From Escherichia coli (lineage in GTDB: Bacteria; Pseudomonadota; Gammaproteobacteria; Enterobacterales; Enterobacteriaceae): a stretch of DNA of 64,000 bases. Under the pieces are notes generated by a model. It saw nothing but the letters and a program-made list of their open reading frames with translations, searched no databases and was not told where the DNA came from. The stretch is taken from assembly GCF_003019035.1 (NCBI RefSeq), contig NZ_CP027447.1; one strand, written 5' to 3'. The stretch's first letter is position 1. Every line of letters begins with the position of its first letter. Shown piece by piece: positions 7,760 through 15,468 of this stretch. The position numbers and the translations under genes were made by a program.

Positions 7760-8122
7760 GGGGCTGATTCTGGATTCGACGGGATTTGCGAAACCCAAGG
7801 TGCATGCCGAGGGGCGGTTGGCCTCGTAAAAAGCCGCAAAAAATAGTCGCAAACGACGAAAACTACGCTTTAGCAGCTTAATAACCTGCTTAGAGCCCTC
7901 TCTCCCTAGCCTCCGCTCTTAGGACGGGGATCAAGAGAGGTCAAACCCAAAAGAGATCGCGTGGAAGCCCTGCCTGGGGTTGAAGCGTTAAAACTTAATC
8001 AGGCTAGTTTGTTAGTGGCGTGTCCGTCCGCAGCTGGCAAGCGAATGTAAAGACTGACTAAGCATGTAGTACCGAGGATGTAGGAATTTCGGACGCGGGT
8101 TCAACTCCCGCCAGCTCCACCA
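7760..8122 (+). ncRNA. ssrA: tmRNA (SsrA, 10Sa RNA)
   Basis: 363 nt from GGGGCTGATTCTGGATTCGACGGG to GGTTCAACTCCCGCCAGCTCCACCA; contains the tag-peptide ORF region (GCAAACGACGAAAACTACGCTTTAGCAGCTTAA) and a tRNA-like 3' end. Confidence 0.95.
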
Positions 8123-8158
8123 CTTTTTAGTAAAATGACGTCTACTAAAGTCTACTAA

Positions 8159-8190
8159 GGCCGCATACCACAAGGGTTTGCGGCCTTTTT
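8159..8190 (+). terminator. rho-independent terminator downstream of ssrA
   Basis: Hairpin GGCCGCA-taccacaagggtt-TGCGGCC followed by TTTTT. Confidence 0.6.
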
Positions 8191-8289
8191 CATGTCCAGT
8201 GAAGTCTACTGAGAATTGCTAGAAACCACTCCTTATGGCACCCTCCTATTATCCCTCGTCGATGAGGGAGTAAAAACGAGGGAGCAAAA

Positions 8290-9522
8290 ATGCCAAAGGT
8301 AGCAACAAAACTCACTGACACAGAGATCAAAAAGGCCAAGCCCACAGAGAAAGAGTTCACGCTATGGGATGGAGATGGCTTGTTCCTGCGCATCAAACCA
8401 AGTGGCAAAAAAATCTGGCACCTCGGCTATACCGTTCCATTAACCAAGAAACGGGCCAAAATGAGTCTTGGGTTCTATCCCTACCTGACACTTGCTCAAG
8501 CAAGAGCGCTACGGGATGAATACCTCTCTTTGCTTGCACAGGGTATCGATCCCCAATCCCACAATGAGCAAAAAGCCCAAGCGCTTAAAGATGCCACTGA
8601 ACACACATTCCAGACTGTAGCGAAAAAATGGCTTGATGAAAAAATTAAAACATCAGGCATATCGCAAGATCATGCTAAGGATATCTGGCGTAGCCTTGAA
8701 CGGAACATCTTTCCTACTTTAGGGGATGTTCCCATTAAAGAGATCCGCCCTAAAATGTTAAAACAACACCTTGACCCCATAGAACAAAGGGGCGTACTCG
8801 AAACCTTGCGACGTATAATTTCCCGACTTAATGAAATTTTCCGCTATGCCGCGACAGAAGAACTCATTGAGTTCAACCCCGCTGACAACCTTATCCAACG
8901 TTTTAGTAAACCCAAAAAGCAAAATATGCCTGCGTTGCCGCCAGATGAACTACCCCGTTTCATGACAGCATTATCAAACGCATCTATACGCTTAGAAACA
9001 CGTCTACTAATTGAATGGCAACTTCTTACTTGGGTTCGTCCCGGTGAAGCTGTACGCGCTCGCTGGACTGACATAGACGAAGAAAGCAAGTATTGGAACA
9101 TTCCATCCGATTTCATGAAGATGAAACGTCCTCATAAGGTTCCATTGAGCAAAGAAGCTATACGTATTCTTGAATCCATGAAACCAATCAGCGGTCATCG
9201 TGAGTGGGTTTTCCCCAGCATAAAAAATCCTTTAACACATATGCACGAGCAAACTGCCAACGCCGCATTAATCCGAATGGGCTTAGGTGGAGAACTCGTA
9301 GCACATGGCATGCGTTCTATTGCAAGAACAGCAGCAGAAGAAGCAGGAAAATTTAGGACAGAAGTTCTTGAAGCGGCTCTCGCCCACTCAAAAAAAGATG
9401 AAATCATTGCTGCTTATAACCGTACAGAATATTTAGTCGAGCGTGTCGAGTTAATGCAATGGTGGAGTGATTATCTCCAAATACAAAAATATAAGTCTTT
9501 AACAACTCTGATCGCCAGCTAA
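8290..9522 (+). CDS. P4-family tyrosine integrase (IntA-like, but not the CP4-57 IntA sequence)
   Basis: 410 aa; N-terminal LTDTEIKKAKP...LWDGDGLFLRIKPSGKK arm-binding-type domain typical of P4-like integrases; C-terminal AHGMRSIARTAAEE...LAHS catalytic region; sits immediately 3' of ssrA. Confidence 0.85.
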   Translation: MPKVATKLTDTEIKKAKPTEKEFTLWDGDGLFLRIKPSGKKIWHLGYTVPLTKKRAKMSLGFYPYLTLAQARALRDEYLSLLAQGIDPQSHNEQKAQALKDATEHTFQTVAKKWLDEKIKTSGISQDHAKDIWRSLERNIFPTLGDVPIKEIRPKMLKQHLDPIEQRGVLETLRRIISRLNEIFRYAATEELIEFNPADNLIQRFSKPKKQNMPALPPDELPRFMTALSNASIRLETRLLIEWQLLTWVRPGEAVRARWTDIDEESKYWNIPSDFMKMKRPHKVPLSKEAIRILESMKPISGHREWVFPSIKNPLTHMHEQTANAALIRMGLGGELVAHGMRSIARTAAEEAGKFRTEVLEAALAHSKKDEIIAAYNRTEYLVERVELMQWWSDYLQIQKYKSLTTLIAS

Positions 9523-9679
9523 TCCTACAATCAACCCAATATCAGAAGCTGGCTTTAGTAGGGATACTTCCATTTTTCTGATATTGTATTACCATGTAGC
9601 TGAAAGTCAGATACCAAGTAGAAAAACACATTTTTATGTATGCTTTATCGAATAAAACATTAACCAAATAGGGGGACTA

Positions 9680-10399
9680 ATGGAAGATTTAGTTTGTAGT
9701 TGGTCACCAAAGCTGATCGTTGATCTTATAAAAAGTATCGCTTGGCCAGTAGTCGTCCTTCTCATCGGCTTCAGTTTTCGAACTCGAATTTTTGAAGTGG
9801 CACGTTCATTTTTTTCTAAAAACACAGTTTCAGAAATATCAGCTACAGTATCAGGTGTATCGGCAAAATTTGTGACAGCAAAGCAAACAACTGAAGTATT
9901 AGAAAGTGCTAGTACCAATGCAGCGAATTTACCAAAGAGTATGAGTATTGAGGCTATAAGAGCGCGACATGAACAGCATAAAACAGAATTCAGCGAAGAG
10001 TTATATCAATCAATAATTAAACATGCTTCCTCTTTAGATATTAATAATGATGAAAAAGTCAAAATTCTGGCACGTGAATTGTCTATTTATCAAGCTATAA
10101 TACGATATATTGACATTAATAAGATATTATTTCGCTCACAATACAATTTATTTTGTTCTATAAATAGTAATGGTGGTCAAATAAATAAAGAAGACGCCAA
10201 TCTTTTTTTTGAGGCGACCAAGAACAACAATAAAGAAGCATTCTCCGATTGGGATTGGATTAAATATATTGCCTATCCTGTTAGTAATAGCCTTATCTAT
10301 GAAGATAATAATTTTTATAAACTTACAGAGTTGGGAAGATCGTATATAGCTTTTATGTCAAAAAATCCACAACTAATCGACGAACTTGCAAAATTATAG
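9680..10399 (+). CDS. hypothetical membrane-anchored protein (island cargo)
   Basis: 239-aa ORF, AT-rich codon usage, one N-terminal hydrophobic segment (IAWPVVVLLIGFSF); no recognisable family motif. Confidence 0.5.
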   Translation: MEDLVCSWSPKLIVDLIKSIAWPVVVLLIGFSFRTRIFEVARSFFSKNTVSEISATVSGVSAKFVTAKQTTEVLESASTNAANLPKSMSIEAIRARHEQHKTEFSEELYQSIIKHASSLDINNDEKVKILARELSIYQAIIRYIDINKILFRSQYNLFCSINSNGGQINKEDANLFFEATKNNNKEAFSDWDWIKYIAYPVSNSLIYEDNNFYKLTELGRSYIAFMSKNPQLIDELAKL

Positions 10400-10629
10400 T
10401 AGGGAATAATATTAAACCCTACTCAATGACTGTTTCAGATCTTGGTTCTGTATCCCATAAATGATCAGGTAAAGTCTAAGCGAATAGCGTTTAACAGGTG
10501 GGATGACTCACTACGTGAACCACCCACCTATAAAAAGGGTTTTTCTTCTGGTGAGTTGTCAATAAAAATGAAGGTTTCCACCTTTCATGCGGACCCTCCT
10601 TAATTTTTTTTGACAAGTTGAGATCGAGA

Positions 10630-11082
10630 CTATTTATCATTACGTTTTTTCATAAAATATTTATAACGTTCATCAGCTTCTTTTTGAAACTTTTCAGCGT
10701 CAAACGTATCAGTTTCTATTTTTATTTTTTGTTTTACCGCTTCATCTAATCTTTTATTTTCTTTCAATCTTTCTTTTTCTACTAATATAAGTTTATAGTA
10801 TTTTAGCTTAATATTAAAACTTGCTTTTGCTAACTCCTTAGCGTCAAAACCTATATTGTATTTTTTAAGAAGTTTCAATATATAATCTATAGTCATTTTT
10901 TTCACTTCCTTTTTTATTTTTTCTTCATGCGCATCTTTTTTTATACTCCCACTTTTTAACCATTGCTTAAATTTATAGCCATTATAATGCTGCCATTGAT
11001 ATATTTCAGCGGCATACATCACCGACAACATACAAACAATAAAAAATACAACCATAAAAACCACACATATTAAATAATACAT
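10630..11082 (-). CDS. hypothetical membrane-anchored Lys-rich coiled-coil protein (last gene of operon)
   Basis: 150 aa; N-terminal TM helix (YYLICVVFMVVFFIVCMLSVMY) followed by a charged helical region; 1-nt gap to the upstream ORF. Confidence 0.5.
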   Translation of the reverse strand: MYYLICVVFMVVFFIVCMLSVMYAAEIYQWQHYNGYKFKQWLKSGSIKKDAHEEKIKKEVKKMTIDYILKLLKKYNIGFDAKELAKASFNIKLKYYKLILVEKERLKENKRLDEAVKQKIKIETDTFDAEKFQKEADERYKYFMKKRNDK

Positions 11083-11083
11083 A

Positions 11084-11320
11084 TCAGCCCCCGCCTTTCC
11101 TTCTATATTGTTCTTTTATTAATGCTACGTGATATTTTTTTGCGTTGCTTATACTTACATCAGCAGAGTTTCTAGCAGAAGCAAAAGCACTTGAAACAAC
11201 AGAAGCAATAATGGCAACTAAGAAAGCAGCAACAAAAAAACCCATCACTGGCCCCATAAAACTAGCCCCACCGTCATCTATTGCTGGTTTTGCTTTTGCT
11301 AATAATGATAATAGGCTCAT
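11084..11320 (-). CDS. hypothetical small membrane protein
   Basis: 78 aa; central hydrophobic segment PVMGFFVAAFLVAIIASVVSSAF; basic Gly-rich C-terminus. Confidence 0.5.
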   Translation of the reverse strand: MSLLSLLAKAKPAIDDGGASFMGPVMGFFVAAFLVAIIASVVSSAFASARNSADVSISNAKKYHVALIKEQYRRKGGG

Positions 11321-11730
11321 ATATTTCTCTCTTCTTCAATGTTTTTAATCGCTGTTTCTATTCTTTGTTTTACAAAGTCTCTAAACACATAACCTATTAT
11401 TCGCGCGTCTTCACATATATCTAACTCATCTTTTTTATGAAAATATAAATCAGCGCTTAAAAGCTCTTCGCTTTGAATATTTAACATTTTACTAGCAAGT
11501 GATATTCTAATAATATTTCGCACTTCTAAATCCAAGCTTGCTCTATCATGCTTATTCAAAAGCTGGAGCGGATGAAAATCTTTTTTTCTTTTCATTTCTT
11601 GCATATCATTATCAAAATCTATCATTAAAAAATGTAAGCAAGTAAAAGACGTATCATAGAAGTTTAAGCGGTTCATCATATCCGCCGTTCCCTCTTTTCG
11701 AGGGTTCGGGTTAGGTCTTAATTTATTCAT
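11317..11730 (-). CDS. hypothetical protein
   Basis: 137 aa; no recognisable motif; 4-nt overlap with the downstream ORF. Confidence 0.5.
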   Translation of the reverse strand: MNKLRPNPNPRKEGTADMMNRLNFYDTSFTCLHFLMIDFDNDMQEMKRKKDFHPLQLLNKHDRASLDLEVRNIIRISLASKMLNIQSEELLSADLYFHKKDELDICEDARIIGYVFRDFVKQRIETAIKNIEEERNI

Positions 11731-12064
11731 CTGCTTTACTCCTTTTCTTGTTGTTTTTTAGCTTCCATTCATTCAATCTTTTATCGCCTTCAACTTTTAA
11801 GAACTCACGCTGATCGTGTATTCTTTTCAGTATTAGATTATTAGTTAACGCTCCTACTAACAAAGAAATATCATTCGCAAAATCTAATGTCTCGATGTTA
11901 TTTTCTCTAACTATTCTTATTAGTTCAGCGCCGGCTTTTATTTTACGTGTCGTATCTTTTTTCCTTTCTTCTGCCTTCATTTCTTGCTCCATTCTATTCA
12001 ATAAGTTTGCTCTTTGCTCAATTTCTTTTTTTAATTTATTATATTTTTCTATATTAAACGCCAT
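11723..12064 (-). CDS. hypothetical coiled-coil, Lys/Glu-rich protein
   Basis: 113 aa; highly charged helical sequence; overlaps neighbours (12064/12054, 11730/11723). Confidence 0.5.
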   Translation of the reverse strand: MAFNIEKYNKLKKEIEQRANLLNRMEQEMKAEERKKDTTRKIKAGAELIRIVRENNIETLDFANDISLLVGALTNNLILKRIHDQREFLKVEGDKRLNEWKLKNNKKRSKADE

Positions 12065-12383
12065 TTTCTGAACCTCTCTTTTCTTTTATCGTAATAAAAA
12101 AGGCAATCAACCCACTGATCAATAAAATTGGTAAAGTTAAAATAAACCCTACCAATAACACTAATGAAAATCCGAGCACGCCGGACATCTCATATAGATT
12201 TCCGAACAATGTGCTTTCGTTTTTATACTCAACCATATTCTGTAAAACAGACCTTTTTTCAATATCTTTTTCTTTTAAAGAATCTTCTCTATATTCATAA
12301 TCTTCACAACTCAAAGAAATTTCCACAGTGTTATCATTCAAATACTCATTATCATAATAGTCGTAATCATTATTCCCAATCAT
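12054..12383 (-). CDS. hypothetical membrane protein with acidic Tyr/Asp-rich N-terminus and C-terminal TM segment
   Basis: 109 aa; hydrophobic stretch GVLGFSLVLLVGFILTLPILLISGLIAFFI; overlapping stop/start with both neighbours. Confidence 0.5.
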   Translation of the reverse strand: MIGNNDYDYYDNEYLNDNTVEISLSCEDYEYREDSLKEKDIEKRSVLQNMVEYKNESTLFGNLYEMSGVLGFSLVLLVGFILTLPILLISGLIAFFITIKEKRGSENGV

Positions 12384-12565
12384 TCTAGATCTCCTTCTAA
12401 CGTGTCATAAACAACAGTAAAATCATTCTCATGAGAAAGAAGATTGTAAGTTATAAATAAGCTTGTCCTATAAACAATATCTGTATTTTCATCCTGTAGT
12501 TTTTGAATAATCAACTTAACAAGATCAGACGCTGCCACTTCAATTTTTTTATCAATATCATTCAT
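12380..12565 (-). CDS. hypothetical small protein (first gene of six-gene island operon)
   Basis: 61-aa ORF; stop overlaps the start of the next ORF (12383/12380); divergent from mobA. Confidence 0.45.
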   Translation of the reverse strand: MNDIDKKIEVAASDLVKLIIQKLQDENTDIVYRTSLFITYNLLSHENDFTVVYDTLEGDLE

Positions 12566-12729
12566 GTTCCACCTCTTTTATTTTTTATGATTTCTGTTAT
12601 ATATATTAAGTAATATAATTATTTATTTAAGTAAAGCGCGATATATATTTTTTTGTTTTTAGAACGCATTTTTCAGATAAAAGGCTCACGTGCGGCGGCT
12701 ATTTTAGTTTTGCTAAAAACTACAATAGC

Positions 12730-12762
12730 GCACTTATACATTCTTCGAATGTGTGCGCCCCA
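12730..12762 (+). other. candidate MobQ-type origin of transfer (inverted repeat plus nick-site-like GTGCGCCC)
   Basis: ACATTC-ttcg-GAATGT inverted repeat immediately followed by GTGCGCCC, resembling the RSF1010 oriT arrangement (inverted repeat then TAAGTGCG/CCCT nick region); about 140 bp upstream of mobA. Confidence 0.45.
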
Positions 12763-12901: not shown

Positions 12902-14203
12902 ATGGCAATATTTCATATGAGCGCTCAAACAATAACACGCAGCAAGGGGTATAGTAGCGTAGCTGCGGCAGCTTATCGCCACGGCGAAAAGTTAACGGAC
13001 GAACACACAGGAGAGATCCACGACTACAGCAAAAAGAAAGGTGTTTCAGACAGTGTTATATTAATACCTGAAAGCGCAGACCGTAATTTTTTAAAGCCTG
13101 CGTATTTATGGAACATGATAGAAAAAAGCGAAAAAAGAAAAGATGCGCAGTTAGCTCGCGAGTTTAATATTGCGCTTCCTGTCGAAATGACAGATGAACA
13201 AAAAAAGGCGTTAGCAATAGATTTTTGCCAAGAGCATTTTGTAAAAAATGGAATGATTGCTGATATAGCTTTTCACAAGCTCGATAGCGACAACCCACAT
13301 TTTCATGTAATGCTAACCACCCGCAGCCTTACGCCGGACGGTTCAGAGTTCGGACATAAAGTCAGGGAATGGAACAACAAAGAGCAGCTCGAAGGCTGGC
13401 GCAAGAGCTGGGCTGACACAGCGAACGAGCACATGCAAAAGGCTGGCATCGATGCGCATATAGATCACAGATCACTGAAAGAACAAAAAGCAGAGCTTGA
13501 CGCTATCCTCCCCCCTCTCAGAACGATTGAGCAAGAGGCGCAGGCTATCAGCTTAGACAGACCGCCGACTATCCATAGAGGCCATAGCCGCAATCCAGAG
13601 CGACAAGCACGCTTTGACGTGCTCCAAGAAGTGAAAGTATCACAAGAGGAAAAAGCACTTAACCACATTGAACAGAAACAACTTAAGCCCTCGCCGCTGG
13701 CTCCAGCTTCCTCCCCTGCCGCATCTTTGCAAGATGCTACACAAGGAGGCAATGAAAACAACCCGCAAAATAGACTCGGCGAAGTTGGCGAATATCTTCA
13801 ATCTAAACTCAATAAAGAAGATAAAGCAGATCTTAATACTGATAATGAAATCAAAGTTCACACTACTAAAAATAATAGGGAAAGCAGTTCAGCAGCAGCT
13901 ATAGGTTCAACATCAAATATTAATTTAACCGATGAGAAAACAGATAAGAATCTACACTTAACAGAAGCACAAAAAGAAGAGTTAGAGGATTTAGAAAATA
14001 AAGAAGCAGCAGCGAAGAAAAAAGCTTATCTGATGAGCGGAGCTGCCGTTCCTGAACTTTCTCAAGATTACAAAACACTGTCAAAAAGTGAGTTTAAAAA
14101 TAAGCTTCATACAGCTAAACAATCAATATCATTAACTGAAAAGAGATTTAATGAAGAATGTGAAGCATATGATAACAGAAGAAAACGACCAATACCGCGC
14201 TAA
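12902..14203 (+). CDS. mobA: MobA/MobL-family (MobQ-type) conjugative relaxase
   Basis: N-terminus MAIFHMSAQTITRSKGYSSVAAAAYRHGEKL is the characteristic MobA/MobL signature; HFHVML histidine motif present; Ser/Glu/Lys-rich low-complexity C-terminus; AGGAG RBS 8 nt upstream of ATG 12902. Confidence 0.8.
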   Translation: MAIFHMSAQTITRSKGYSSVAAAAYRHGEKLTDEHTGEIHDYSKKKGVSDSVILIPESADRNFLKPAYLWNMIEKSEKRKDAQLAREFNIALPVEMTDEQKKALAIDFCQEHFVKNGMIADIAFHKLDSDNPHFHVMLTTRSLTPDGSEFGHKVREWNNKEQLEGWRKSWADTANEHMQKAGIDAHIDHRSLKEQKAELDAILPPLRTIEQEAQAISLDRPPTIHRGHSRNPERQARFDVLQEVKVSQEEKALNHIEQKQLKPSPLAPASSPAASLQDATQGGNENNPQNRLGEVGEYLQSKLNKEDKADLNTDNEIKVHTTKNNRESSSAAAIGSTSNINLTDEKTDKNLHLTEAQKEELEDLENKEAAAKKKAYLMSGAAVPELSQDYKTLSKSEFKNKLHTAKQSISLTEKRFNEECEAYDNRRKRPIPR

Positions 14204-14563: not shown

Positions 14564-15058
14564 ATGAAAACCGAAAACATTATTTTTCTTGTTTGGGCAG
14601 TGATTTTTATCCTGATTCTCTGCCAACTTTTTTATTTTGGCCCTAAAAAAAGAAGATACCTCAATACTTATATAGAGGTATTAGATGGTGATGTCCTCTC
14701 ATATGAATGTCAAAATACCGGCGTAGTTATTGATACTAAAAAAAACACAGTACGTATTTTCAATACATATAAGGACAGCACTTTCAAATACGACAACATC
14801 AGGGAAATAAATTATACGCTATCCGAAGCCGGAAAAATTTATAGCACAAGTAATAATCTAAACTCTATGATAAAGTCCGCTGGAGCTAACAGTAATGAAC
14901 AAATGTTAGCTAATCAGCGTTCCGGTATTTTTATACTGACAGATGATATAAAAAATCCTTCATGGAAAATCAATCTACCAATGAAAAACAAAACATCATC
15001 TACCAATCAGGAGATCTGCGATCGATGGCTTCTCATTTTTAAAAAATACGTTTTATAA
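14564..15058 (+). CDS. hypothetical membrane-anchored protein
   Basis: 164 aa; N-terminal hydrophobic helix IIFLVWAVIFILILCQLFYF; AT-rich; no recognisable motif. Confidence 0.5.
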   Translation: MKTENIIFLVWAVIFILILCQLFYFGPKKRRYLNTYIEVLDGDVLSYECQNTGVVIDTKKNTVRIFNTYKDSTFKYDNIREINYTLSEAGKIYSTSNNLNSMIKSAGANSNEQMLANQRSGIFILTDDIKNPSWKINLPMKNKTSSTNQEICDRWLLIFKKYVL

Positions 15059-15090
15059 CTTTGTTTTTTATTTTTATCTTTGGAGTTGAC

Positions 15091-15468
15091 ATGAAAAAAT
15101 TGATTGCGGCAGCATTTATTATTCTCCCTTTAGCAAGTTGTACTGTTTATGGAAACAAATCCATTAAAGACGAAACGCAGCAAAATATAGCCTCTAAAAT
15201 TATAAAAGGTAAAACTACTCAAAAAGATATCCTTCAACTTTATGGAGAACCTCAGACTAAAGAAACTAACGATGGTAAAGAAATGTGGGGATATTCCGTT
15301 ATGTCCGGTGAATCTCAGATTTCAAATTACATACCGGGATTAGCGTTATTGAAGAATAGCAGCACAGCGCACATGAAAGAACTTGAGATCTTGTTTAAAG
15401 GTGATGTAGTTGAACGCTATACCTTTAGACAAACGGCAAGCAAAGCTTCTCGCGGGTTGTTAGATTAA
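15091..15468 (+). CDS. putative lipoprotein
   Basis: Start chosen at ATG 15091 (GGAG RBS upstream); signal peptide MKKLIAAAFIILPLASC with lipobox L-A-S-C; 125 aa. Confidence 0.55.
   Translation: MKKLIAAAFIILPLASCTVYGNKSIKDETQQNIASKIIKGKTTQKDILQLYGEPQTKETNDGKEMWGYSVMSGESQISNYIPGLALLKNSSTAHMKELEILFKGDVVERYTFRQTASKASRGLLD

What the first reader, a model, noticed from the sequence alone, without database searches (positions are those of the whole stretch)
10630..12565. Six-gene, translationally coupled operon of small unrecognisable proteins inside the ssrA island
Six consecutive minus-strand ORFs (61, 109, 113, 137, 78 and 150 aa) have overlapping or abutting stop/start codons (12383/12380, 12064/12054, 11730/11723, 11320/11317, 11082/11084), so they look like one co-translated module. 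Three carry a single predicted transmembrane helix and two are highly charged coiled-coil proteins. None shows a motif I can assign to a known family, and AT content is very high, suggesting recent acquisition. The operon is divergent from the relaxase gene across the oriT-like region. Its architecture fits a membrane-associated accessory module of a mobile element (exclusion, abortive infection/defence, or a relaxosome/transfer accessory set), but nothing in the sequence identifies which. This is my best candidate for an undescribed system in the window.
Basis: partly seen in the sequence, partly recalled or inferred. Interest (0 to 1): 0.75.

Follow-up and report, generated by a model that had tools for sequence, protein, structure and literature searches.

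The report
MobC-led accessory operon of mobilisation module
The six small genes are real and conserved, and they form the accessory half of a plasmid-type DNA-transfer (mobilisation) module next to its transfer origin and relaxase; one is a distant MobC relative and the other five, three of them membrane-anchored, remain of unknown function.

Summary
Six tightly packed minus-strand ORFs (10630-12565) are under purifying selection. They are conserved as a block in about 20 loci.

They are not a free-standing new system. They always sit across a near-invariant 67-nt origin of transfer from a MOBQ relaxase. That three-part unit occurs on two unrelated backbones:
- 5.4-7.2 kb Rep_1 rolling-circle plasmids of Enterobacterales that carry little else;
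- ssrA-integrated mobilisable islands, as in this window.

The oriT has the same hairpin plus TAAGTGCGC architecture and orientation as the RSF1010 and MOBQ4 oriTs. ORF3 (113 aa) is a distant homologue of the RSF1010/MOBQ4 accessory protein MobC (hhalign 95.6 %, controls at most 6.4 %).

Defence-like genes occupy a separate, variable cargo slot next to the integrase. The operon itself stays constant.

ORFs 1, 2, 4, 5 and 6 have no detectable sequence or fold relatives and occur only in this element family. The best reading is an expanded MobC operon that helps relaxosome function or docking at the membrane. Entry exclusion or establishment roles are not excluded.

Verdict: a new variant of a known kind, of moderate interest.

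The parts
12380..12565 (-). ORF1, 61 aa, acidic (net -8), soluble. It is the promoter-proximal, fast-evolving position of the operon and is absent from the 5.4 and 5.75 kb plasmids.
   Evidence: One search gives the ORF. dN/dS is 0.15-0.24. There is no family hit. It is related to the alternative 66-aa first gene of plasmid L004 (hhalign 87.5 %).
12054..12383 (-). ORF2, 109 aa. It has a conserved MIGNNND start, a very acidic N-terminal half, and a C-terminal hydrophobic segment of about 38 residues with a central S/L-Pro followed by a basic end. It is absent from the 5.4 kb plasmids.
   Evidence: Pfam gives only a marginal DUF4017 hit on the hydrophobic segment (E 1.1e-3). It is recognisable in the divergent plasmids L010, L026 and L028.
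11723..12064 (-). ORF3, 113 aa, basic coiled-coil protein. It is a distant homologue of the RSF1010/MOBQ4-type relaxase accessory protein MobC over residues about 5-56.
   Evidence: hhalign of the ORF3 family against the MobC family gives 93.9 %, E 1.5e-7. With more diverse profiles this rises to 95.6 %, E 1.3e-8. Reversed and shuffled controls reach at most 1.4 % and 6.4 %. Against MOBQ4 MobC the result is 69 %, E 4e-5. Pfam gives a weak DUF3847 hit on the same residues. dN/dS is 0.04-0.09. In the 5.4 kb plasmids it is the first gene next to oriT.
11317..11730 (-). ORF4, 137 aa, a soluble helical-bundle protein with no detectable relatives outside this element family.
11084..11320 (-). ORF5, 78 aa, a bitopic membrane protein. 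The core is one transmembrane helix plus a conserved basic tail, KKYHVALIKEQYRRKGGG. The first 22 residues or so are dispensable.
   Evidence: (the alignment shows that the L010 and L006 versions start at the transmembrane helix). There is no family hit.
10630..11082 (-). ORF6, 150 aa. It has an N-terminal transmembrane helix followed by a strongly basic (net +13), all-helical domain that is presumably cytoplasmic. It is the best conserved of the unknown proteins (50-53 % identity in the divergent plasmids).
   Evidence: The AlphaFold2 model has pLDDT 79 and pTM 0.45. Foldseek against PDB finds nothing. The profile against PDB sequences finds nothing. There are 85 clusters, all unnamed and all from Enterobacterales.
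12695..12761 (-). Candidate oriT core: 67 nt that are identical in nine loci and nearly so in the divergent plasmids.
   Evidence: The operon-sense strand folds into three hairpins, z = -4.5 against shuffles.
12728..12736 (-). TAAGTGCGC, the nick-region 9-mer shared with the RSF1010 and MOBQ4 oriTs. It lies immediately 3' of the hairpin ACATTC-GAA-GAATGT (12738-12752).
   Evidence: It occurs once in the 64 kb window. The same 9-mer and hairpin architecture, on the mobC-sense strand, is seen in RSF1010 and pMG828-2.
12902..14203 (+). MOBQ relaxase. The ORF as listed starts at GTG 12875; the family alignment and RefSeq annotation of the near-identical copy start at ATG 12902.
   Evidence: NCBIfam MobQ scores 254 bits. 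PDB matches are NES 4HT4 (E 4e-32) and R1162 MobA 2NS6 (E 6e-11). RefSeq annotates the L002 copy as a MobQ family relaxase.
8290..9522 (+). Tyrosine integrase of the ssrA-inserted element that carries the module.
   Evidence: Pfam Phage_integrase is recorded on orthologues.

Best explanation
The six genes are the accessory (DNA-processing) arm of a MOBQ-type mobilisation module. The element in the window is an integrative mobilisable element inserted at ssrA. Its transfer unit has three parts: the six-gene operon, the oriT and the mobQ relaxase.

Shown:
- The unit is conserved as a whole on two unrelated backbones.
- The intergenic core is a homologue of the RSF1010/MOBQ4 oriT, in the same orientation.
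- ORF3 is a MobC-family protein.

Inferred:
- ORF3 binds at oriT and helps the relaxase open and nick the TAAGTGCG/C site, as MobC does for RSF1010.
- The nicked strand is the operon-sense strand, so the operon is the first DNA to enter a recipient and mobQ the last.
- ORF4 (soluble), ORF5, ORF6 and ORF2 (membrane-anchored, with basic or acidic cytoplasmic parts) are co-translated partners. They hold the relaxosome at the inner membrane or present it to the coupling protein and secretion system of a helper conjugative plasmid. This role is analogous, not homologous, to that of the small membrane-anchored MobB of RSF1010.
- ORF1 and ORF2 are dispensable, fast-evolving add-ons.
For: - Linkage. 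Every locus examined has the operon opposite a MobA_MobL/MobQ relaxase. This includes Rep_1 plasmids that hold only rep, mobQ and 4-6 of these ORFs and ssrA islands in E. coli, Yersinia and Photorhabdus. The islands have no Rep, which argues against a replication role.
- oriT. A 67-nt core is invariant while the flanking genes have dS 0.5-1.5. The hairpin plus TAAGTGCGC motif lies on the operon-sense strand, as in RSF1010 and pMG828-2. The strand folds with z = -4.5. The MOBQ4 oriT was mapped experimentally to the mobA-mobC intergenic region (PMC6856555).
- ORF3 as MobC. hhalign gives 93.9-95.6 % with clean controls. ORF3 is the first gene next to oriT in the 5.4 kb plasmids. mobC deletion reduces RSF1010 and MOBQ4 transfer (PMC6856555).
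- Backbone versus cargo. The slot between the integrase and ORF6 varies while the operon is constant. It holds a 239-aa ORF, a HEPN protein, a methyltransferase plus a 492-aa protein, or a reverse-transcriptase protein.
- Selection and coupling. Purifying selection and conserved translational coupling hold for all six.
- MobB analogy. IncQ MobB is a 137-aa protein with a C-terminal hydrophobic anchor (sequence read).
Against: - Only ORF3 has any homology support, and only over its N-terminal half.
- ORFs 1, 2, 4, 5 and 6 have no sequence or fold relatives. Their transfer role rests on linkage alone.
- Known MOBQ modules manage with one or two accessory proteins, so five extra genes is unusual.
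- No attR copy of the ssrA end was found in the window, so this island copy may no longer be excisable.
- MOB-suite types all 12 plasmids as non-mobilizable, and no transfer data exist.
- Position 4 in plasmid L028 holds a protein not detectably related to ORF4.
Confidence: 0.55

Rival explanations
1. Entry exclusion or immunity. The membrane proteins ORF2, ORF5 and ORF6 act in a cell that already carries the element to block entry of a second copy or of the helper. This would resemble the exclusion functions encoded within the ColE1 mob region.
For: Three of the six proteins are membrane-anchored. They are backbone genes of a selfish element on both plasmids and islands. From general knowledge, not tested here, there is precedent for exclusion genes inside mob operons.
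Against: None has a lipoprotein signal or a sizeable periplasmic domain; their conserved parts are predicted to be cytoplasmic. They are translationally coupled to a MobC homologue. Mobilisable elements do not build the pore on which exclusion acts.
Confidence: 0.15
2. Establishment or anti-defence genes of the leading region. Because the operon is predicted to enter the recipient first, ORF1 and ORF2 (acidic, variable) and perhaps others protect or establish the incoming DNA.
For: By homology with RSF1010, the orientation of the nick region places the operon on the leading side. Positions 1 and 2 are variable, acidic and dispensable.
Against: The transferred strand would be the sense strand, so the genes cannot be read from incoming single-stranded DNA. 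There is no similarity to any known anti-restriction family. ORFs 3-6 are slow-evolving, not arms-race-like.
Confidence: 0.15
3. An anti-phage defence, abortive-infection or addiction (toxin) module carried as cargo.
For: The proteins are small, membrane-associated and unknown, and lie in an AT-rich island.
Against: There are no PADLOC hits. The operon is constant backbone, while defence-like genes occupy a separate variable slot. Several plasmids carry a separate ParE/RHH addiction pair as well. The DNA is not found in phages.
Confidence: 0.07
4. Plasmid maintenance functions (copy control, partition, multimer resolution) of the Rep_1 plasmids.
For: On the 5.4 kb plasmids these are the only genes besides rep and mobQ.
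Against: The operon is retained intact, under purifying selection, in chromosomally integrated islands that have no Rep. It is always on the oriT side, not next to rep.
Confidence: 0.05

Closest known systems
RSF1010/R1162 (IncQ1, MOBQ1) mobilisation region: mobC - oriT - mobA/mobB
   Same: A MOBQ relaxase sits opposite a MobC-family gene across oriT. The oriT has a hairpin with a GAA loop followed by TAAGTGCGC on the mobC-sense strand. ORF3 aligns to the MobC core. A small membrane-anchored accessory protein is present (MobB).
   Different: The relaxase domain is only distantly related (2NS6, E 6e-11). There is no primase fusion and no MobB homologue. Four to five extra conserved genes lie in the mobC operon. 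The backbone is a Rep_1 replicon or an integrase instead of IncQ replication genes.
MOBQ4 plasmids of enterobacteria (e.g. pMG828-2; PMC6856555)
   Same: They carry the nearest outside relaxases (about 53 % identity in the relaxase domain). The oriT is very similar: GGGCGCACAC..hairpin..TGTATAAGTGCGC. mobC lies next to oriT, divergent from mobA.
   Different: MOBQ4 plasmids have Rep_3 or ColE2 replicons and only mobA plus mobC. Here the replicon is Rep_1, and the mobC-like gene is embedded in a 4-8 gene operon.
Pfam DUF3847 (PF12958)
   Same: A weak match covers the same coiled-coil/RK-x-x-T-R-K-I-x-x-G segment of ORF3 (E 5.9e-4). One family member carries the precomputed annotation.
   Different: The match is below a confident threshold for most members, and the family has no assigned function.
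Integrative mobilisable elements (IMEs)
   Same: The element has an integrase at a tRNA-like gene (ssrA), an AlpA-type regulator, a relaxase and oriT, and no mating-pore genes.
   Different: The transfer unit is shared nearly intact with small rolling-circle plasmids. attR was not located in this copy.

Membership tests
RSF1010/MOBQ4-type MobC (relaxase accessory protein) | Profile similarity to the MobC family core (coiled coil followed by RK-x-D/E-T-R-R/K-K-I/V-x-x-G-A/G) | tested here: met
   ORF3 residues 5-56 score hhalign 95.6 %, E 1.3e-8. Reversed and shuffled controls reach at most 6.4 %. The C-terminal half does not align.
RSF1010/MOBQ4-type MobC (relaxase accessory protein) | A small gene next to oriT, transcribed away from a MOBQ relaxase gene | tested here: met
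   It is the first gene after oriT in the 5.4 kb plasmids. It is third in the window because ORF1 and ORF2 are interposed.
RSF1010/MOBQ4-type MobC (relaxase accessory protein) | Stimulates nicking or strand opening at oriT and raises mobilisation frequency | not testable with these tools
   This needs EMSA or nicking assays and mating assays with a deletion mutant.
MOBQ oriT | An inverted repeat followed within a few bases by the conserved nick region TAAGTGCGC(C), on the strand with the sense of mobC | tested here: met
   Window minus strand 12752-12728 reads ACATTC-GAA-GAATGT-A-TAAGTGCGC. The same design is seen in RSF1010 and pMG828-2. It lies inside a 67-nt invariant block.
MOBQ oriT | Site- and strand-specific cleavage by the cognate relaxase | not testable with these tools
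   Biochemical assay required.
MOBQ4 plasmid group (PMC6856555) | Rep_3 or ColE2 replicon, and a transfer region of only mobA plus mobC | tested here: not met
   The replicon is Rep_1 (PF01446). The operon has 4-8 genes. The relaxase domain is only about 53 % identical to MOBQ4.
IncQ-type MobB | Sequence similarity to MobB | tested here: not met
   hhalign of all six families against RSF1010 MobB gives at most 0.7 %. There is no NCBIfam hit.
Known anti-phage defence systems (PADLOC-DB v2) | A significant match of any component to a defence-system model | tested here: not met
   The best E-values are 0.011-0.017 on short segments, with none for ORFs 3-6.
Type IV coupling protein / secretion-system components | NTPase or other T4SS Pfam/NCBIfam domains | tested here: not met
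   No such hits for any of the six. None is large enough to hold an NTPase domain.
Integrative mobilisable element | An integrase plus relaxase and oriT, without mating-pore genes, inserted at a tRNA-type gene | tested here: met
   The integrase (8290-9522) is next to ssrA, with MobQ and oriT. The same layout occurs in Yersinia and Photorhabdus.
Integrative mobilisable element | Flanking direct repeats (attL/attR) | tested here: inconclusive
   No second copy of the ssrA 3' end is present in the window, even allowing 3 mismatches.

The most novel reading that the evidence does not exclude
ORF2, ORF4, ORF5 and ORF6 form a previously unknown, ATPase-free, membrane-anchored docking complex. A small hitchhiking element brings it along to plug its own relaxosome into the coupling protein or secretion channel of unrelated helper plasmids. 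This would be a new class of mobilisation proteins that could set helper range.
Probability: 0.3. Interest if true: 0.65.

Novelty: new variant of a known kind. Interest (0 to 1): 0.42.

Why it matters
Small mobilisable plasmids and islands move much of the accessory genome, yet how their relaxosomes engage foreign conjugation machines is poorly understood.

This family carries the familiar mobC-oriT-mobQ core plus four or five conserved extra proteins, three of them in the membrane. The 5.4 kb plasmids contain almost nothing else, so they make a convenient test bed.

The work also shows that typing tools call these plasmids non-mobilizable although they carry a relaxase and a recognisable oriT. 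It further shows that the same transfer unit has been exchanged between rolling-circle plasmids and ssrA islands whose cargo slot holds defence-like genes.

Tried and rejected
- Library scans. Pfam, NCBIfam, PHROG and PADLOC scans of all six proteins gave nothing beyond a marginal DUF3847 hit for ORF3.
- Homologue searches. Word-indexed searches for ORF4, ORF3 and ORF6 found only unnamed Enterobacterales proteins. An exhaustive HMMER search of 1.84 billion representatives with the ORF3 profile found 7 clusters.
- tblastn of ORF3 against plasmids found only the close family.
- Structures. The AlphaFold2 models of ORF4 and ORF6 gave no meaningful fold matches. Profile searches against PDB sequences found nothing.
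- MobB homology and paralogy among the six proteins were rejected.
- Phage origin was rejected: there is no match in 50,697 phage records.
- Decay of the operon in strain SCU-301 was rejected. Its frameshifts are almost all single-base changes in A/T homopolymers, typical of assembly error.
- Membership of the MOBQ4 plasmid group was rejected.
- attR was searched for and not found.
- The species-representative genome scan found a single locus.
- Literature searches found no description of these proteins or plasmids.
- The variable first genes of other operon copies also have no family hits.
Full report
**1. Observation**

The six minus-strand ORFs exist at the stated coordinates: 12380-12565, 12054-12383, 11723-12064, 11317-11730, 11084-11320 and 10630-11082. 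The junctions are -4, -11, -8, -4 and +1 nt, and each ORF has a Shine-Dalgarno-like sequence.

GC is 0.29-0.33 here against about 0.50 in the flanking chromosome. The window is E. coli chromosome. In order it holds smpB, the tmRNA gene ssrA (7760-8122), a tyrosine integrase (8290-9522), a 239-aa ORF, the six ORFs, a MobQ relaxase (NCBIfam NF041496, 254 bits), a DUF4755-like gene, a lipoprotein gene, an AlpA-like gene and the ypjA/ehaD autotransporter.

ORF2, ORF5 and ORF6 have hydrophobic segments. ORF3 (+7) and ORF6 (+13) are basic; ORF1 (-8) and ORF2 (-10) are acidic.

**2. The ORFs are real genes**

Orthologues from E. coli, Klebsiella, Salmonella, Yersinia and Photorhabdus loci give dN/dS of 0.04-0.3 at dS 0.3-1.5 for every ORF. 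The tight junctions (-23 to +6 nt) are kept in ten operon copies, including plasmids whose proteins are only 33-57 % identical to those here.

A 99.4 % identical copy in strain SCU-301 looks frameshifted. Its 12 indel columns are almost all single-base changes in A or T homopolymers, which indicates assembly error rather than decay.

**3. Where the block occurs**

In 5,426 complete E. coli genomes it is rare (12 genomes). It is found either in ssrA islands or on 5.4 kb plasmids.

PLSDB holds 12 plasmids of 5.4-6.2 kb from Klebsiella, E. coli, Enterobacter and Salmonella. These plasmids encode only three things:
- a 563-aa Rep (Pfam Rep_1; weak similarity to the HUH IS91 transposase);
- the MobQ relaxase;
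- four (ORF3-6), five (ORF2-6) or six of the small ORFs.

Some also carry a ParE/RHH pair.

More divergent plasmids from sequencing runs (L010, L026, L028) keep the layout of Rep_1, MobA_MobL and 5-8 small ORFs.

ssrA islands with the same order were found in Yersinia enterocolitica and Photorhabdus. The order is integrase, variable gene(s), operon, intergenic region, relaxase, DUF4755, 125-aa gene, AlpA.

Among about 100,000 species-representative genomes only one locus was found, a 6.6 kb Kosakonia contig. No phage record matches.

The gene(s) between the integrase and ORF6 differ from island to island while the operon is constant. The slot holds the 239-aa ORF here, a HEPN protein, a methyltransferase plus a 492-aa protein, or a reverse-transcriptase-domain protein. 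The operon is therefore backbone, not cargo. It is linked to the relaxase rather than to replication, because the islands have no Rep.

**4. The intergenic region is an oriT**

A 67-nt stretch (12695-12761) is identical in nine loci whose flanking genes have diverged to dS 0.5-1.5. It is nearly identical in the divergent plasmids.

| Element (strand read) | Sequence |
|---|---|
| Window (operon sense) | GGGGCGCACACATTC-GAA-GAATGT-A-TAAGTGCGC-TATTG... |
| RSF1010 (mobC sense) | CCAGTTTCTC-GAA-GAGAAACCGG-TAAGTGCGCCCT |
| pMG828-2, MOBQ4 (mobC sense) | GGGCGCACACAAACTC-GACGAAGGA-GAGTTTGTATAAGTGCGC |

The 9-mer TAAGTGCGC occurs once in the 64 kb window, at 12728-12736 on the minus strand. The strand folds into three hairpins with z = -4.5 against shuffles. 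The first hairpin shows a compensatory change between lineages, CCCCA..TGGGG versus CCCCC..GGGGG.

For MOBQ4 plasmids the oriT was mapped experimentally to the mobA-mobC intergenic region (PMC6856555).

By homology, the nicked strand here is the operon-sense strand. The operon would then enter a recipient first and mobQ last. This step is inferred, not shown.

**5. ORF3 is a MobC relative**

A MobC family alignment was built from annotated genes of IncQ and other MOBQ plasmids. It matches the ORF3 family at hhalign probability 93.9 %, E 1.5e-7, over ORF3 residues 6-54.

Reversed and column-shuffled controls give at most 1.4 %, and the other five proteins at most 0.3 %. Adding the divergent ORF3 orthologues and the MOBQ4 MobC raises the match to 95.6 %, E 1.3e-8, with controls at most 6.4 %.

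Pfam gives a weak DUF3847 hit on the same segment. In the 5.4 kb plasmids ORF3 is the first gene after oriT, exactly like mobC.

The ORF3 family itself is tiny: 7 cluster representatives among 1.84 billion proteins.

The relaxase is closest to the staphylococcal NES (4HT4, E 4e-32) and more distant from R1162 MobA (2NS6, E 6e-11). Among plasmids, relaxase identity drops from 80-90 % within the family straight to 55 % or less; the MOBQ4 plasmids are at about 53 %. MOBQ4 plasmids have other replicons and only mobA and mobC, so this is a separate group.

**6. The other five proteins**

| Protein | What was found |
|---|---|
| ORF4 | Models as a helical bundle (pLDDT 80, pTM 0.70); matches only its own orthologue in AFDB50 and generic bundles in PDB |
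| ORF6 | A transmembrane helix followed by long basic helices (pLDDT 79, pTM 0.45); no fold or sequence relatives |
| ORF5 | Core is one transmembrane helix plus an invariant basic tail |
| ORF2 | Keeps an MIGNNND start, a very acidic N-terminal half and a hydrophobic C-terminal segment with a central proline |
| ORF1 | Belongs to a fast-diverging family at the first position |

None resembles IncQ MobB, and the six are not paralogues of one another. IncQ MobB is nevertheless also a small protein with a C-terminal membrane anchor, so a membrane-anchored mobilisation helper has precedent. MobB's function is taken from general knowledge of RSF1010, not tested here.

At position 4 plasmid L028 has a protein that is not detectably related to ORF4.

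**7. Interpretation**

The best-supported reading is that the operon is an expanded mobC operon, the accessory arm of a MOBQ mobilisation module. That module has moved between rolling-circle plasmids and ssrA islands.

What is shown is the linkage, the oriT homology and the MobC homology. The roles of ORF2 and ORF4-6 are inferred from linkage, co-translation and topology. They may anchor or present the relaxosome at the membrane.

Entry exclusion, establishment or anti-defence (especially for ORF1 and ORF2), defence or toxin, and plasmid maintenance were considered. They are ranked lower for the reasons given under the rival explanations.

No literature describing these proteins or plasmids was found.

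**8. Verdict**

This is not a categorically new system but a new variant of a known kind, with five conserved proteins still unexplained. Interest is moderate (0.42).

Noticed in passing
window 9680-10399 (+): The 239-aa ORF between the integrase and the operon occupies a slot that differs in every island lineage. In other strains and genera the slot holds a HEPN protein, a methyltransferase plus a 492-aa protein, or a reverse-transcriptase-domain protein. It looks like a defence-gene cargo hotspot. The 239-aa protein itself has no significant family hit.
   Followed up: partly
PLSDB plasmids NZ_CP092396.1, NZ_CP083084.1 and 10 others (L004, L005, L022, L023): MOB-suite typing lists all 12 plasmids of this family as non-mobilizable with no replicon type. 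They nevertheless encode a MobQ relaxase, a MobC-like protein, a recognisable MOBQ oriT and a Rep_1 initiator.
   Followed up: partly
L021 (pMG828-2) 2399-2689: The MOBQ4 MobC, reported as having no homology to other accessory proteins by PSI-BLAST (PMC6856555), aligns to the RSF1010 MobC family at hhalign probability 96 %, E 3.4e-9.
   Followed up: partly
window 8138-8215: The motif GTCTACT(A/G)A occurs three times just downstream of ssrA and upstream of the integrase gene. These may be integrase arm-type binding sites.
   Followed up: no
window 8040-30000: No second copy of the ssrA 3' end (attR) was found, so the right boundary of the island is undefined and this copy may not be excisable. 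In two other E. coli strains (L024, L025) IS1 has removed oriT and mobQ, and ORF1 (plus ORF2 in L025), leaving ORF3-6.
   Followed up: partly
window 14564-15468 (+): A DUF4755-like membrane protein (164 aa) and a lipoprotein (135 aa, phrog_3135, E 1.4e-28) follow mobQ in the islands but are absent from the plasmids. Their role is unknown.
   Followed up: no
L002 (E. coli SCU-301) 9001-11493: This 99.4 % identical copy is annotated as five fragmentary hypothetical genes. The cause is 12 indel columns, almost all in A/T homopolymers, which is probably long-read assembly error.
   Followed up: yes
L026 1-13511: This metagenome contig is a head-to-tail dimer of a 6.5 kb plasmid of the family. It is either an assembly artefact of a circular molecule or a true multimer.
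   Followed up: no
window 22000-28000: A second AT-rich stretch (GC 0.34-0.41) contains a tRNA-Met gene at 24849-24924 (minus strand). It is probably another horizontally acquired segment and was not examined.
   Followed up: no
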